Source: an uncultured bacterium
Lineage (GTDB): Bacteria; Vulcanimicrobiota; CADAWZ01
Assembly (NCBI GenBank): GCA_902790465.1
Contig: CADASF010000006.1
Coordinates: 20,964 to 84,963, forward strand
Direction: 5' to 3'
DNA: 64,000 nucleotides
Made by a program: the position numbers and the translations under genes. This document shows, in pieces, positions 4,413 to 19,367 of this stretch. Within the stretch, counting starts at the first letter, position 1. Each line of letters opens with the position of its first letter. Under the pieces are notes generated by a model, which was not told the origin of the DNA, searched no databases, and worked only from the letters and a program-made list of their open reading frames with translations.

Positions 4413-5517
4413 ATTTTTTACCCCCTACTAAATTTGATAAAGCCATTAATCCACCATTTACAACTGAATGACCTCCCAAAATGATTGGTACTTTGCTTTC
4501 AGAAACTCTTTTGGTAAAAGATTTTATAAATGGATTCTTTATTTTTTTCCACATTTGCATATCTGATAAATAGGCATCTTCTTGGTTATATTTATCTGCA
4601 AATAGATAAAATATAACCCTTGTATCTAAAATACAAGCATTACAAATATTTTCAAACATATCAAAAAAAGTATCAAAATTTTTTGATTGGAAGATACTAT
4701 TTAGAATACTTGCAGAAGCTCTCCCTCTTACTTTAAGTCCTCTTTCTTCAGATAAAAATCTTATTTTACATGGAGTGTTTCTCTCTGCTAAGTATAAATT
4801 TAGCGGATTTATTCTGCCATATACAAATATCTCATTTGATTTAGATGATAGAATGTTTATAAAACTATCCAAATCTATATTTTTAAAGATACTATTTGAT
4901 ATATAATTTCCTATTCTGCCTGAATTATTTGTGATTTTTGACAAAATAGCAAAGTCATTTGGTGTGTCAATATCAAAAATACTACCCAAACTATTTGGTA
5001 TTTTTACATATTTTAGAGAAGTTTCTTTCATCAAATATGACGAAAAATAATTGTCTATATTCGGAAAATTTAAAATAATTTTTTCATCTAAATCAGACAG
5101 AGAAAATGTAATAAAATCTGAAGATACTAAATTATTTGAAAGGAATTGTCCTTGTATTGTTTTTTCAGATATAAATTTTAGTTCATCTGTTTTTAAAAAA
5201 TAACAGCTTCCAGCTCCAAAATAAAATATTTTATCAAGTGAATATTTATTTTTGATATTAATTAGAGATTTTCCAAAATTAAAATTTTCTCCAATTTTTT
5301 CTGATATTATAAATGGAAGTTTTTGATCTTTGTTATTGAACTTAAGATCTCCAATAACTATTGCGGGATTGAAATAACCACTTTCAAACATTTTTTGACA
5401 AGTGTCAAAAATCATTAATTCTCTTGCATCTTTTATAATCTTGGAAATACTACCTTCAGGAGGTCTTATATTCCAATTTTCTATAATTACTGGAGTTATT
5501 TTTTTAGAAGTCATCAT
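4384..5517 (-). CDS. Hypothetical protein, possible CofC-like/nucleotide-diphospho-sugar transferase fold
   Basis: Long ORF; FDIDTPND motif typical of CofC/MobA-like NTP transferases; start taken at ATG overlapping the ansA stop. Confidence 0.55.
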   Translation of the reverse strand: MMTSKKITPVIIENWNIRPPEGSISKIIKDARELMIFDTCQKMFESGYFNPAIVIGDLKFNNKDQKLPFIISEKIGENFNFGKSLINIKNKYSLDKIFYFGAGSCYFLKTDELKFISEKTIQGQFLSNNLVSSDFITFSLSDLDEKIILNFPNIDNYFSSYLMKETSLKYVKIPNSLGSIFDIDTPNDFAILSKITNNSGRIGNYISNSIFKNIDLDSFINILSSKSNEIFVYGRINPLNLYLAERNTPCKIRFLSEERGLKVRGRASASILNSIFQSKNFDTFFDMFENICNACILDTRVIFYLFADKYNQEDAYLSDMQMWKKIKNPFIKSFTKRVSESKVPIILGGHSVVNGGLMALSNLVGGKKYDSSYMSRM

Positions 5518-15239: not shown

Positions 15240-16295
15240 ATGGCTTACGGATTGAATTTAATTCAAGCTGGCGGTGCTTGTGCAGCAGGTGGAATGAATA
15301 TTGGTTCACAAATCAACAGCAGTGGTGGCGGATTTGGTTTAGGATTAATTGGAAATGGCGGTGCTTGTGCTCCAACAGGAATGAATATTGGTACACAAAT
15401 TAATGGTGGAACAAATGCACAGAATATAAATGGTGGTTCAAACGGATTCGACCTTTCATCTATGCTTGGCGGAGTATCCTCATTTACTCCTTCTGCAGAT
15501 ATTATGTCCATGGCTGGAGATATGGGTAATACAATCCAGAGTACAACCCAACAAATGATGACCAACCTTCTCGGTGGTATGGGTGGCGGAATGGATATGA
15601 GTTCACTCGGTCTCGGTGGAATGCCAGGATTTGGCGGAATGCAAGGAATGCAGGGAATGCAAGGTAGTGGATTCAATGGTCAGTGTGGTCAGCCTACAAT
15701 GTATGGCATGCTCCAGATGATGATGAAAATGATGGAAATGATGGCTATGATGATCATGATGAACATGATGAATCAGATGTCTCAAGATATGGGTAATATG
15801 ATGGGCAACATGATGGGCGGAGGTCCTGGAGCAGGCGGTTGTGGTGCCTGTGGCGGAGTTGGCGGTCCTAATGGTGCTCAGCAAGCAGGCGGTTCATCAG
15901 GTTCAGCAACAGTAGATCTTGCAAGAAAATATTTAGGTCAGACAACACATGATATCAAAGGTCTCAATAACCTTGATAAATCAATCGGTTACAACCTCAA
16001 CTGTGCAAACTTCGTAAGTGCTTGCTTACAGCAGACAGGAAGACTTCAAGGTCACTACAATGGTTGTAAAGGTCTTGAACAAGCTCTAAAGAGCCAAGGT
16101 TGGAGACAGGTTCCAGCAAATCAGGCTCAGCCAGGTGATGTATGGTTCAATGCAAAGAGAGGACATACAGAACTCGTAGAAAAAGCTGGAAATCCACCTA
16201 CATTGATTGGTTCAAACAATGGTGGCGACAGCATTCAAGAAGTCACCGAAGATAGAGGAAGCGGAAGAGGCGGAGTCTTCTATCACAAAGATTAG
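15240..16295 (+). CDS. Gly/Met-rich protein with C-terminal NlpC/P60-like (papain-fold) amidase domain
   Basis: ATG 15240 after GGAGG; LARKYLG, NCANFVSACL, PGDV, GHTEL (Cys-His dyad). Confidence 0.8.
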   Translation: MAYGLNLIQAGGACAAGGMNIGSQINSSGGGFGLGLIGNGGACAPTGMNIGTQINGGTNAQNINGGSNGFDLSSMLGGVSSFTPSADIMSMAGDMGNTIQSTTQQMMTNLLGGMGGGMDMSSLGLGGMPGFGGMQGMQGMQGSGFNGQCGQPTMYGMLQMMMKMMEMMAMMIMMNMMNQMSQDMGNMMGNMMGGGPGAGGCGACGGVGGPNGAQQAGGSSGSATVDLARKYLGQTTHDIKGLNNLDKSIGYNLNCANFVSACLQQTGRLQGHYNGCKGLEQALKSQGWRQVPANQAQPGDVWFNAKRGHTELVEKAGNPPTLIGSNNGGDSIQEVTEDRGSGRGGVFYHKD

Positions 16296-16318
16296 TTAAA
16301 CTGTTATAAATTATGAAT

Positions 16319-16362
16319 AAAAAAGTGGCTGTGAAAAAGTATCTTTTTTACAGCCACTTTTT
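16319..16362 (+). terminator. Rho-independent terminator
   Basis: aaaaagtggctgt ... acagccacttttt. Confidence 0.75.
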
Positions 16363-16379
16363 ATTTTATATAATCTTCA

Positions 16380-16573
16380 TAAATTAACTCTTTGTGATAG
16401 TTAGTGAAAATAAATAAAATGTGCTACAAACTATCCAATATATGCCTGTATACTGCCATATTGTCATTGCGAGGGAGCTGTGCGACCGTGGCAATCTAAG
16501 CCTGTAAATTATTATTTACTTAAAAATTAAGTCGATCGCCTTTATTTAAAATGCTGTACTCGATCTATTTGAT
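16380..16573 (+). repeat. REP-bearing dispersed element, left flank of CRISPR locus
   Basis: Contains GTCATTGCGAG...GCAATCT hairpin; matches the reverse complement of about 19120-19367. Confidence 0.8.
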
Positions 16574-16791
16574 ATTTTCAATACCGCTTTTTAAATAAAA
16601 GAGGAATATAATAATTAAAGAAAGAAAATTATATTCGTAAAGATTAAGAAAGTTTTGCAAACCTTGGTCTTAATTTTACAAACCTCGGTCTTAATTTTTT
16701 AAAAAGGTAGTTATTAGACAAAAAATAATGTATCATGTTATTTGAAATTTAATGTCTAATAATAATTTTGTAGTATTTTGACCCCGTAAGG
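16574..16791 (+). promoter_or_regulatory. CRISPR leader with anti-repeat
   Basis: AT-rich non-coding region before the first intact repeat; tandem acc(t/c)ggtcttaatttt-like duplication at about 16661-16700; AAGGTAGTTATTAGAC at 16704-16719. Confidence 0.75.
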
Positions 16792-18337
16792 GTCTAATAA
16801 CTACCTTAAATGCCTACTATTGTAGGTATTTTCCATATCATTGCAAAATATTTTAACGTCTAATAACTACCTTAAATGCCTACTATTGTAGGTTTGACAT
16901 CTTGAACGAAATTTATTTTCGTCTAATAACTACCTTAAATGCCTACTATTGTAGGTACCAGTGATAGTATCTAGGAGCTTCTGGTCTAATAACTACCTTA
17001 AATGCCTACTATTGTAGGTTCATAAATTGAAGTCTATCAGAATTTAGAAAGTCTAATAACTACCTTAAATGCCTACTATTGTAGGTCTTCATACATAAAA
17101 GACTTGTCAATCGTTGTCTAATAACTACCTTAAATGCCTACTATTGTAGGTCTAATAACTACCTTAAATGCCTACTATTGTAGGTACTTTGGTACCAGAT
17201 TAAGAATCTTTCAAAGTCTAATAACTACCTTAAATGCCTACTATTGTAGGTTTTTTTAGACGGTACTGTTAAAGTTTGCGTCTAATAACTACCTTAAATG
17301 CCTACTATTGTAGGTTGTTCCATGTAGACAAATTCTTCATTGAGTCTAATAACTACCTTAAATGCCTACTATTGTAGGTAGGTAACACTTTTTACCCTTG
17401 ATCATGTCTAATAACTACCTTAAATGCCTACTATTGTAGGTATTGTTATTTAAACCGTATTATTTATATGTCTAATAACTACCTTAAATGCCTACTATTG
17501 TAGGTCAAAGCCATTTCCAGTCTGATCTGTAAGTCTAATAACTACCTTAAATGCCTACTATTGTAGGTCTTTTGTGTCTATTGCTATGATTTGTGTTTTG
17601 TCTAATAACTACCTTAAATGCCTACTATTGTAGGTAATTGCATGTGAATTTATTTGCAATGATGTCGTCTAATAACTACCTTAAATGCCTACTATTGTAG
17701 GTGAACTATCAATCCTGTAATCAAAATACCGTCTAATAACTACCTTAAATGCCTACTATTGTAGGTATTAAAAATATGACTATTCAAGAAATTAGGTCTA
17801 ATAACTACCTTAAATGCCTACTATTGTAGGTTGAGTAACCCAATTCGGAGTTGTCAAGGTCTAATAACTACCTTAAATGCCTACTATTGTAGGTTTGAAT
17901 GCACCATCATGTGCTCCACAATGTCTAATAACTACCTTAAATGCCTACTATTGTAGGTAAATATTTTTTAATTTTTTCAAGATCATGTCTAATAACTACC
18001 TTAAATGCCTACTATTGTAGGTAACTTCGTCAGCTGTATAAGTTTTCTTAGTCTAATAACTACCTTAAATGCCTACTATTGTAGGTATCCATAACCCCAT
18101 TCTATGGAAGATACGTCTAATAACTACCTTAAATGCCTACTATTGTAGGTAAATTCATAATGGGGACAGGTGTAATCGGTGTCTAATAACTACCTTAAAT
18201 GCCTACTATTGTAGGTTTAGGCATTCTTATTATTGATTGCCAAAGTCTAATAACTACCTTAAATGCCTACTATTGTAGGTTTAGGCATTCTTATTATTGA
18301 TTGCCAAAGTCTAATAACTACCTTAAATGCCTACTAT
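16792..18337 (+). CRISPR. CRISPR array with type V-A (Cas12a-like) repeat GTCTAATAACTACCTTAAATGCCTACTATTGTAGGT; 24 full repeats + 1 truncated; 23 spacers of 26-31 nt
   Basis: Identical 36-nt repeats read directly; 3' hairpin CCTAC-TATT-GTAGG; truncated terminal repeat 18309-18337 supports + orientation. Confidence 0.97.
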
Positions 18338-18948
18338 CTTTTCAACCCCCTAACCCCCATTCTTGGGGGCGGTAGGCGGTGCCAGCCGGCACCTGTGGGT
18401 CGGCTCATCCTCCCTAACCCTCCTTTAGAAGGAGGGAACAGGACTTAAATGTCTATTGTCTTTTCAACTATTTTACCCCAATCTTGGGGGCGGTGTTCGG
18501 GGTCAGCTATACCTGTTTGTAAAAATTACTTGTAATTTTTACTTGGTTTCCTTAGCTTTGGAAGTGGCTCAACCACCCTAACCCTCCCAATGTTTTTCCT
18601 CCTTCATTTATGAAGGAGCATATTTGCTAGAAGGAGGGAACAGGAGTTAAATGCCTAATATCGTATATATCTAACTATAAGGCACCTTCAAAATTGGCTA
18701 CTAATCACTCCAAAAAGCTAATAACTAATTCCTCTCCAAGCTGGAGAGGGGACAATTAAGCTCCTTCAATGAAGGAGAAAAAAAATGGGTGAGGGTGGAG
18801 ACTCTCAGGCTCCGTCAGGAGCCGTCCCCATATATTTCCCTCACATGTTTTTTCTCCTTGCTTGCAAGGAGCTGGATTGACACTGAGGGGTTAGGGGAGT
18901 TGACTCTTTCCTTATAGTTTTCTACCTTAAATGCCTACTGTATTAGGT
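18338..18948. repeat. Cluster of GC-rich REP-like hairpins interleaved with degenerate CRISPR repeat fragments
   Basis: ccctcctttagaaggaggg, ctccttcatttatgaaggag, cctctccaagctggagagg, ctccttgcttgcaaggag; repeat remnants near 18444, 18647, 18718, 18922. Confidence 0.75.
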
Positions 18949-18988
18949 GGTAAAAGAATCAATATTATCACAGATTGGTTAATACTAA

Positions 18989-19367
18989 TTTAACTCTTTT
19001 TGCTATTTAATTAATATTTTAAAATACACTCGAATAGCCTATATTTAGAAGCGATGTCATTGCGAGGGAGCTGTGCGACCGTGGCAATCTCAACCGCTTA
19101 ATTTAAATTTAGTAATTTATTGAATAGATTAGGCAGAAATTGAGTAAATATAGGCGATCGACTCAATTTTTAAGTAAATAATAATTTACAGGCTTAGATT
19201 GCTGGGCTTCCCCCTCGTGAGGATATTTTTTTAAAAACTCGTTAGAGTTTTTAACTATTTCCAAGCCTCGCAATGACAAAGTGGCAGTAAATAGCCATAT
19301 ATTGGATAGTTTATAGCAACTTTTTATTTACTTATTTTTTTAATAAATAGCACAACGAGTTAATTTA
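18989..19367. repeat. Palindromic REPIN-like element with two inverted GTCATTGCGAG REPs, right flank of CRISPR locus
   Basis: REP at 19056-19089 identical to 16463-16496; inverted REP ending CTCGCAATGAC near 19277; ends TTAACTC...GAGTTAA. Confidence 0.75.

What the first reader, a model, noticed from the sequence alone, without database searches (positions are those of the whole stretch)
16704..16827. Perfect 16-nt anti-repeat in the leader of a Cas12a-type array
Seen: AAGGTAGTTATTAGAC (16704-16719) is the exact reverse complement of repeat nt 1-16, 72 nt before repeat 1; a short repeat-like TGTCTAATAA (16753-16762) offers a competing pairing partner. Known: type V-A needs no tracrRNA and keeps only the last 19-20 nt of the repeat, so the anti-repeat covers almost exactly the part left on the 3' end of the preceding crRNA; leader-repeat pairing is known to tune processing in Cas9 and Cas13 arrays. 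Inference: an undescribed leader switch or a tracr/scout-like helper RNA for this effector clade.
Basis: partly seen in the sequence, partly recalled or inferred. Interest (0 to 1): 0.75.

Follow-up and report, generated by a model that had tools for sequence, protein, structure and literature searches.

The report
Conserved anti-repeat in Cas12a array leaders
The leader of this Cas12a CRISPR array carries a 16-base stretch that can pair, as RNA, with the part of each repeat that Cas12a throws away; the same feature recurs and co-varies in one branch of Cas12a systems, and I found no paper describing it.

Summary
Window 16704-16719 is the exact reverse complement of repeat nt 1-16 and ends 72 nt before repeat 1.

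It is not a one-off:
- The genome's second full array has the same anti-repeat with one change, which gives a G.U pair.
- A sister species changed repeat nt 14 and the anti-repeat together.
- Of 52 Cas12a arrays fetched through the protein alone, 13 carry an anti-repeat ending 72-85 nt before repeat 1. It matches each array's own, different repeat.
- Across 17 leaders, 93.8% of cells pair (shuffles 70.4%, 0 of 500 as high) and 12 of 16 pairs change on both sides.
- Mismatches are 21 G.U against 0 A.C. That asymmetry points to pairing in the sense RNA rather than to a DNA motif.

The element covers exactly the excised "separator" and leaves the Cas12a handle free. Carriers fall in two adjoining Cas12a clades (13 of 16 rows, against 0 of 34 in the large clade).

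Best reading: a transcribed leader "anti-separator" that forms a helix next to the first crRNA handle. Its effect on stability or processing is inferred, and the transcription start was not settled. A tracr- or scout-like role is not supported.

The parts
16653..16694 (+). Two tandem 21-nt copies (16653-16673, 16674-16694) of the widespread V-A leader motif (TT)GCAAACC-N3-GTCTTAAT, called motif A here. It is a possible promoter -35 region or protein site.
   Evidence: D15. The motif is present in + orientation in 34 leaders of the protein-anchored Cas12a loci, usually 111-135 nt before repeat 1. The second array of the genome has 7 copies.
16704..16719 (+). Anti-repeat (anti-separator), the exact complement of repeat nt 1-16
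   Evidence: Conserved and co-varying in 17 leaders.
16753..16762 (+). Repeat-like start TGTCTAATAA inside the leader. It could pair with the 3' half of the anti-repeat. Seen only in this genus.
   Evidence: (D20). No direct run over 8 nt in the other anti-repeat leaders.
16780..16794 (+). Small hairpin GACCC-CGTAA-GGGTC across the leader-repeat junction. It uses repeat nt 1-3 and holds the conserved TAAGG leader end.
   Evidence: Read. Identical in the three leaders of the genus. A TAAGG-like leader end is seen in most anti-repeat leaders.
16792..16807 (+). Separator of repeat 1 (nt 1-16), the pairing partner closest to the anti-repeat
   Evidence: The separator concept comes from PMC8478413 (passages).
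16808..16827 (+). Cas12a handle of repeat 1 (nt 17-36, stem CCTAC/GTAGG), left unpaired by the anti-repeat
   Evidence: The handle hairpins stay folded in the MFE structure printed for the window's leader.
16792..18344 (+). CRISPR array of 25 repeats, the last one (18309-18344) degenerate after nt 28

Best explanation
The 16-mer is a transcribed 'anti-separator'. It lies in the leader part of the pre-crRNA, on the array strand. It base-pairs with the first 16 nt of a repeat, which is the AT-rich separator that Cas12a cuts off. The most likely partner is repeat 1 in cis, 72 nt downstream. The helix closes the leader into a stem-loop and ends at the Cas12a cut site, so the handle and spacer 1 stay free. 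I infer that this tucks the 5' end of the precursor into a duplex. That would shield it from 5'-end-dependent decay, keep the long AU-rich leader from misfolding with the first handle, and so favour the newest crRNA. Shown here: the complementarity, its conservation at a fixed distance, co-variation with different repeats, the G.U-only mismatch pattern, and the restriction to a Cas12a sub-clade. Inferred: transcription from upstream of the element, repeat 1 as the partner, and the effect on stability or processing.
For: (1) Own genus. The array on contig C9 has the anti-repeat 72 nt before its repeat 1 with one A>G change, which gives a G.U pair. In sister species G002 the repeat has C14>T and the anti-repeat has the matching G>A. 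(2) Unbiased sample. Of 52 Cas12a arrays fetched through the protein, 10 have 13 or more of 16 complementary bases. The same-strand, reversed and complement-only controls give 0, 0 and 1. With G.U allowed, 13 of 52 score 13 or more of 14, all ending 72-85 nt before repeat 1. (3) Seventeen leaders: 93.8% of cells paired against 70.4% in shuffles (0 of 500 as high), 12 of 16 pairs changed on both sides, and partners slid by 1-3 columns pair at 34-47%. (4) There are 21 G.U cells, 0 A.C cells and 17 other mismatches, the latter mostly at the outer end. A symmetric scan that allows A.C instead of G.U adds no hit at that position. (5) Each full array has its own copy at a fixed distance. (6) In 8 of 17 leaders a -10-like hexamer lies 16-19 nt after the TTGCAA-like hexamer of motif A and 4-11 nt before the first paired base. 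In the mini-array on C36 and three metagenome copies, TTGACA-17-TATAAC is followed 7-8 nt later by an anti-separator fused to the first handle. (7) Contigs from RNA libraries of three studies run unbroken from motif A through the anti-repeat into repeat 1. (8) The duplex is stable, -12 to -22 kcal/mol. (9) Structure next to the Cas12a cut site and the leader are known to affect crRNA output (PMC8478413 and PMC7102956, passages).
Against: The transcription start in this genome is unknown. In the window's own genus the -10 after the last motif A copy is poor, and a start there would cut into the helix. RNA-library contigs can hold DNA, and they also cover sequence upstream of motif A. Equilibrium folding pairs the anti-repeat with a distal repeat instead of repeat 1 (P about 0 for repeat 1 in 12 of 12 leaders), so the partner is not settled. 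A fixed distance to repeat 1 would also fit a DNA-level role. The 17 leaders used for the pair counts were picked for complementarity, so those counts lean towards the structure. The unbiased figures are those. No experiment bears on function.
Confidence: 0.58

Rival explanations
1. Helper acting on all repeats. The leader RNA, or a fragment released from it, pairs in trans or while tethered to the polymerase with the separator of every repeat. The short duplexes mark the separators for a host double-strand RNase, or help each handle to fold.
For: The complementarity fits every repeat equally and stops exactly at the separator's two ends. Equilibrium folds pair it with distal repeats. The enzyme that removes the separator's other end is unknown (PMC8478413, passages). 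RNase III and RNase J genes are present in the genome. In the C36 mini-array the 5' anti-separator pairs with the terminal truncated repeat, not with the first one.
Against: There is one anti-repeat per transcript against up to 25 repeats. No terminator or separate transcription unit was found. Every full array keeps its own copy at a fixed distance from repeat 1, which a diffusible helper would not need. Cas12a is known to mature crRNAs without a tracrRNA (PMC7102956, passages).
Confidence: 0.15
2. DNA-level leader motif. An inverted copy of the repeat end, about 75 bp upstream, is brought beside repeat 1 by DNA bending. It helps Cas1-Cas2(-Cas4) dock for spacer integration, as inverted repeats do in type I-F leaders.
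For: The distance to repeat 1 is fixed at 72-85 bp. It lies next to a widely conserved, orientation-specific leader motif. Inverted repeats in I-F leaders are bound in the integration complex (bioRxiv 10.1101/2023.05.26.542337, passages). The genome encodes a type V cas4-cas1-cas2 set.
Against: The 21 G.U against 0 A.C mismatches are not expected for a double-stranded protein site. The Francisella V-A integrase needs only about 3 leader bases in vitro (PMC13034035, passages). The mini-array version sits directly after a promoter and is fused to a handle.
Confidence: 0.12
3. Relic. It is an inverted half-repeat left by a faulty integration or rearrangement and has no function.
For: Leaders of this genus also hold a direct repeat-like piece at 16753-16762. 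Decayed repeat pieces lie downstream of the array.
Against: It is kept at the same place in hosts of at least four named phyla, plus the window's own unnamed phylum. It matches each array's own repeat, with compensatory and wobble changes.
Confidence: 0.03

Closest known systems
Leader-repeat RNA hairpins of type II-A and type VI-B and related CRISPR arrays (PMC13187072, passages read; the II-A paper, Nat Microbiol 2022, could not be opened and is known to me only through those passages and recall)
   Same: A transcribed leader pairs with the first repeat, and the pairing is conserved across related systems.
   Different: Those systems have the guide-repeat layout, where the first repeat would give an extraneous crRNA. 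Their hairpin destroys the repeat's functional fold to block it. Cas12a has the repeat-guide layout, so the first repeat gives the newest real crRNA. Here only the discarded separator is paired and the handle stays free. The same paper reports no leader-repeat hairpin in VI-A (the repeat-guide control) and says that V-A handles the extra repeat by mutating the terminal repeat.
tracrRNA and scoutRNA anti-repeats (types II, V-B, V-C, V-D and others)
   Same: A sequence complementary to part of the repeat, encoded beside the array.
   Different: Those are separate RNAs that pair with the repeat part kept in the mature guide, and the effector needs them. This element is in cis in the leader and pairs with the part that is removed. 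It belongs to an effector known to work without a tracrRNA.
CRISPR separator of Cas12a arrays (PMC8478413, passages)
   Same: The target of the anti-repeat is exactly this 16-nt AT-rich segment, which is thought to keep the Cas12a cut site accessible.
   Different: That paper treats the separator as an unstructured insulator. A conserved complement to it in the leader is not mentioned in the passages I read.
Inverted-repeat motifs in type I-F leaders bound by Cas2 after IHF bending (bioRxiv 10.1101/2023.05.26.542337, passages)
   Same: Inverted sequence motifs at fixed spacing upstream of repeat 1.
   Different: Those work as double-stranded DNA, and both arms lie in the leader. Here one arm is the repeat itself, and the mismatch pattern is RNA-like.
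Standalone repeat-like sequences in V-A loci (PMC10120712, passages)
   Same: Repeat-derived sequence outside the array in about half of V-A loci, with unknown function.
   Different: Those are described as mostly next to cas12a and as repeat-like units. A leader anti-repeat at a fixed distance, with co-variation, is not described in the passages read. The supplements were not seen.

Membership tests
Type V-A (Cas12a) CRISPR array | 36-nt repeats whose 3' 19-20 nt form the Cas12a handle stem-loop, transcribed repeat-then-spacer | tested here: met
   25 repeats ending in CCTACTATTGTAGGT. The terminal repeat is degenerate at its 3' end.
Type V-A (Cas12a) CRISPR array | A cas12a gene in the genome | tested here: met
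   An 1147-aa ORF on contig C9 scores 589 bits against TIGR04330, cut-off 300. His, Lys and Lys stand where I recall the RNase residues of Cas12a to be (the residue assignment is recalled, not tested).
Type V-A (Cas12a) CRISPR array | Array adjacent to cas12a-cas4-cas1-cas2 | tested here: not met
   No cas gene was found among the 14 large ORFs scanned between 7966 and 31241, which flank the array. cas12a stands alone about 33 kb from the C9 array. The type V cas4-cas1-cas2 genes are on a separate 3.2-kb contig. The assembly is fragmented into 121 contigs.
tracrRNA / scoutRNA | Own transcription unit with a promoter and a terminator | tested here: inconclusive
   The consensus scan found no terminator-like site between 16719 and 16792. 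The transcription start is unknown.
tracrRNA / scoutRNA | The anti-repeat pairs with the repeat part retained in the mature crRNA | tested here: not met
   Pairing covers nt 1-16, the excised separator, and not the handle nt 17-36.
Leader-repeat hairpin that blocks extraneous crRNA (II-A, VI-B) | Leader complementary to the first repeat, conserved across relatives | tested here: met
Leader-repeat hairpin that blocks extraneous crRNA (II-A, VI-B) | The hairpin disrupts the repeat fold that the effector or tracrRNA needs, and the first repeat is the one without a spacer of its own | tested here: not met
   The handle is untouched (handles stay folded in the window's MFE structure). In the repeat-guide layout the extra repeat is the last one, which is mutated here at 18309-18344.
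DNA-level leader motifs for spacer integration (I-E, I-F type) | Recognition as double-stranded DNA, so no strand-specific wobble rule | tested here: not met
   21 G.U against 0 A.C. The symmetric A.C scan adds nothing at this position.
DNA-level leader motifs for spacer integration (I-E, I-F type) | Needed for integration by Cas1-Cas2 | not testable with these tools
   This needs integration assays.
boxA antitermination element (considered for motif A only) | Likeness to the host's rRNA-leader boxA and binding by NusB/S10 | tested here: inconclusive
   No 16S gene is present in this assembly. In the complete genome behind L106, no motif A-like sequence lies in the 500 nt before the three 16S genes.

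The most novel reading that the evidence does not exclude
In one branch of Cas12a systems crRNA maturation has a second, RNA-guided step. The leader-encoded anti-separator stays near the transcribing polymerase, or is released as a stable leader RNA. It pairs with the separator of each repeat. The duplex is the long-sought signal for the host nuclease that removes the separator and trims crRNA 3' ends. This would be a cis-encoded functional cousin of tracrRNA in a system held to need none.
Probability: 0.13. Interest if true: 0.85.

Novelty: new variant of a known kind. Interest (0 to 1): 0.7.

Why it matters
Cas12a arrays are used widely for multiplexed editing and are taken to need nothing but Cas12a and the repeats. 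Leader-repeat RNA pairing has been shown for Cas9 and Cas13 arrays, where it silences a useless first guide. In Cas12a arrays the first guide is the newest and most useful one, so that logic does not apply. A conserved, co-varying leader element that pairs exactly with the discarded separator therefore points to an unrecognised layer of control over precursor stability or first-guide output. It occurs in a Cas12a branch that includes cultured strains, so it can be tested directly. It could also be copied into synthetic arrays, or removed from them.

Tried and rejected
- Rfam gathering scan of the whole window: no family matched.
- Promoter and terminator consensus scan of 16250-16900: it did not place a start, and the only terminator belongs to the upstream gene.
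- Metagenome scan with the 20-nt handle: it gave no new canonical leader of this repeat type. It returned only mini-array copies, another array type and two chance coding hits.
- Viral-contig scan with motif A: 75 loci, of which only 2 are Cas12a arrays and 73 are chance matches. Two further motif hits, in own-genus genomes (L197, L202), lie in coding sequence.
- Motif A in a 401-genome sample of the window's phylum: found only in its own genus, 3 of 401. This gave no further leaders.
- Reads: depth and uncovered parts of the laid RNA contigs say nothing about expression or starts. The contig starts at 16668-16670 coincide with the tandem 21-mers and are probably assembly breaks.
- Equilibrium folding could not name the pairing partner.
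- boxA idea for motif A: not supported and not excluded.
- The roughly 170-nt inverted repeats that flank the array looked like transposon ends. They are two copies of a dispersed element with over 100 copies in the genome.
- Papers that could not be opened: Santiago-Frangos 2021 and 2023, Liao 2022, Stringer 2020. They may bear on leader motifs of V-A arrays.

Full report
**Observation.** The window holds a 25-repeat CRISPR array on the + strand, 16792-18344. The repeat is GTCTAATAACTACCTTAAATGCCTACTATTGTAGGT.
- The 3' 20 nt form the Cas12a-type handle.
- The last repeat (18309-18344) loses its stem, as expected for the far end of an array read left to right.
- AAGGTAGTTATTAGAC at 16704-16719 is the exact reverse complement of repeat nt 1-16 and ends 72 nt before repeat 1.
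- No shuffle of the leader reached such a run (0 of 200).
- In the whole assembly, allowing up to 2 mismatches, the inverted 16-mer occurs outside arrays only here and in one other leader.

**Context.**
- None of the 14 large ORFs scanned around the array (7966-31241) is a cas gene.
- The assembly has 121 contigs and is 97.8% complete.
- It has a 1147-aa cas12a standing alone on contig C9 (589 bits against TIGR04330).
- A type V cas4-cas1-cas2 set lies on a 3.2-kb contig, and part of a type I-C system on another.
- Three arrays share this repeat: the window's, a 12-repeat array at the start of C9, and a mini-array on C36.

**Own genus.**
- The C9 leader is homologous to the window's. It has the anti-repeat at the same 72-nt distance with one A>G change, which turns an A-U pair into G.U.
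- In a sister species (G002) all repeats read ...ACTTT instead of ...ACCTT. Its leader anti-repeat reads AAAGTAG... instead of AAGGTAG..., a compensatory double change.

**Wider sample.** I fetched 80 loci through a Cas12a protein alignment, not through any leader feature, and found arrays by the handle pattern (65 arrays). One array per locus was kept if its repeat consensus was at least 34 nt and enough leader was present. This left 52 and dropped the rest.
- Ten of the 52 had 13 or more of 16 complementary bases in the 300-nt leader. The same-strand, reversed and complement-only controls gave 0, 0 and 1.
- All ten sit 72-77 nt before repeat 1.
- With G.U allowed, 13 of 52 score 13 or more of 14 at 72-85 nt. 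One further locus (L121) scores 13 of 14 at 65 nt and was not counted.
- Their separators differ (GTTTAATACCTATATT, GGTTAATAAACCCTTT, GTTATATAGAACATTG, GGATAATAACCCCTAA and others), and each anti-repeat fits its own repeat.
- Two viral-collection contigs added one more repeat type with the same feature.

**RNA or DNA.** I aligned 17 leaders: 13 from the protein search, 3 from the window's genus and 1 from the viral collection.
- 93.8% of 272 cells pair, against 70.4% in shuffles (0 of 500 as high).
- 12 of 16 pairs change on both sides.
- Sliding the partner by 1-3 columns drops pairing to 34-47%.
- These 17 were chosen for complementarity, so the unbiased evidence is that.
- The informative point is the kind of mismatch. 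There are 21 G.U cells, 0 A.C cells and 17 others, mostly at the outer end.
- A transition in a Watson-Crick pair gives G.U or A.C with equal chance. On the opposite strand the two swap.
- By my count the G.U cells stem from at least about 15 separate position-and-lineage events. That count is by eye, not by a tree.
- A scan that allowed A.C instead of G.U found nothing extra at this position.
- This asymmetry is what selection for pairing in an RNA read from the array strand would give. It is not expected for a double-stranded protein site or for an antisense RNA.

**Leader architecture.**
- The two 21-nt tandem units at 16653-16694 are copies of a motif, (TT)GCAAACC-N3-GTCTTAAT.
- I found this motif in + orientation in 34 leaders of the protein-anchored loci. 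They include Moraxella, Smithella, Bacteroidota and archaeal bins, and the motif usually lies 111-135 nt before repeat 1.
- Where the anti-repeat is present it follows this motif.
- In 8 of 17 leaders a good -10 hexamer lies 16-19 nt after the motif's TTGCAA. The first paired base then lies 4-11 nt further on. A start there would put the anti-repeat at the very 5' end of the precursor.
- In the window's own genus the -10 is poor, and a start from the last motif copy would cut into the helix. Upstream tandem copies (2 here, 7 in C9) might serve instead. This is inference.

**The mini-array.**
- On C36, and in three metagenome contigs, a near-consensus promoter (TTGACA-17-TATAAC) is followed 7-8 nt later by AATTAGCTGAGTTATTAGA fused directly to the first handle.
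- That stretch is the complement of the truncated terminal repeat plus its flank (TCTAATAACTCAGCTAATT, then a T run).
- Here too the first handle is preceded directly by one strand of a 17-19-bp helix that holds the transcript's 5' end. No compensatory change was available among these copies.

**Transcription.**
- Contigs from RNA libraries of three studies run unbroken from a motif copy through the anti-repeat into repeat 1. They are record 2 (16653-16826), records 13 and 14 (16670-16799) and record 17 (16668-16804).
- They carry the C9-type and G002-type variants at 16709 and 16706.
- Such libraries can hold DNA, and contigs show neither starts nor strand. This is only consistent with the anti-repeat being transcribed together with repeat 1.

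**Distribution.**
- On a quick Cas12a tree of 53 rows, carriers fall into two adjoining groups: 7 of 8 rows and 6 of 8 rows, the window's protein among them.
- A 34-row clade has none (support 99). It holds Bacteroidota, Moraxella, Smithella and others.
- The label needs 6 changes on the tree, against 12.4 in shuffles (0 of 500 as low).
- One carrier (L113) sits on an untrustworthy long branch.
- Hosts of carriers span Bacillota, Melainabacteria, Bdellovibrionota and Bacteroidota, plus the window's own unnamed phylum. The element therefore travels with the effector and array.

**Mechanism.**
- The anti-repeat matches, end to end, the 16-nt separator. This is the AT-rich repeat part excised by Cas12a on one side and by an unknown enzyme on the other. 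It is thought to keep the cut site accessible (PMC8478413, passages).
- The duplex is stable, -12 to -22 kcal/mol, and leaves the handle free.
- I take it to be a cis helix between the 5' part of the leader RNA and the separator of repeat 1.
- That helix would sequester the precursor's 5' end and loop out the AU-rich leader. The leader is known to disturb Cas12a guides (PMC7102956, passages).
- RNase J and RNase III genes are present. That is only permissive.
- Equilibrium folding prefers distal repeats as partners, so a role on all repeats remains open.

**Known work.**
- Leader-repeat hairpins are described for II-A and for type VI systems with the guide-repeat layout, where they block an extraneous first crRNA. 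The same paper finds none in VI-A and says V-A solves the problem by mutating the terminal repeat (PMC13187072, passages).
- Inverted repeats in I-F leaders act as DNA (bioRxiv 10.1101/2023.05.26.542337, passages).
- The Francisella V-A integrase needs about three leader bases in vitro (PMC13034035, passages).
- Repeat-like units are common in V-A loci, mostly beside cas12a, with unknown function (PMC10120712, passages; supplements not seen).
- Five of my ten full-text searches bear on this question, with terms around Cas12a or V-A, leader, anti-repeat, first repeat, upstream motif and leader RNA. None returned a paper describing a V-A leader anti-repeat.
- Four relevant papers could not be opened.
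It agrees with this reading but is not independent proof.

Noticed in passing
window 16653-16694; L042-L121 leaders: The motif (TT)GCAAACC-N3-GTCTTAAT is conserved in + orientation in 34 leaders of the protein-anchored Cas12a loci across phyla, usually 111-135 nt before repeat 1. In this genus it is tandemly amplified, with 2 copies here and 7 in the C9 leader. I found no description of it. It could be a promoter core, a protein site or a boxA-like signal.
   Followed up: partly
G000:C36 about 5100-5420 (L014); L035, L036, L040: A mini-array of 3-4 units is conserved in three metagenome contigs. It has a strong promoter. Its first handle is preceded by the complement of its own truncated terminal repeat. 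An inverted handle copy lies just downstream on the other strand. It sits beside a SocA-like antitoxin gene and a BbrUII-type restriction gene.
   Followed up: partly
L021 (G001:C279), about 1500-1521 of the reverse strand: A solitary Cas12a handle (2 mismatches to the window's) with no array, in the sister species that also has a different cas12a.
   Followed up: no
window 16380-16548 and 19055-19367: The array and its decayed tail are bracketed by inverted copies of an element of about 170 nt. That element has well over 100 full or partial copies across the genome, so it is a dispersed MITE/REP-like repeat and not array-specific ends.
   Followed up: partly
window 17116-17185; 18217-18244 and 18281-18308: Two repeats overlap by 2 nt with no spacer between them. 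The last two spacers are identical 28-mers.
   Followed up: no
window 18322-18966: Downstream of the terminal repeat lie several decayed repeat pieces (for example 18444-18462 and 18922-18948), mixed with duplicated G+C-rich segments. The first part of this tail is shared with the array end in sister species G002.
   Followed up: no
G000:C9 34131-37574; C103; C66: cas12a stands alone about 33 kb from the nearest array. The type V cas4-cas1-cas2 genes are on a separate small contig. A type I-C system is also present.
   Followed up: partly
window 16780-16794: A 5-bp G+C hairpin spans the leader-repeat junction and competes for repeat nt 1-3 with the anti-repeat. It is identical in the three leaders of the genus.
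   Followed up: no
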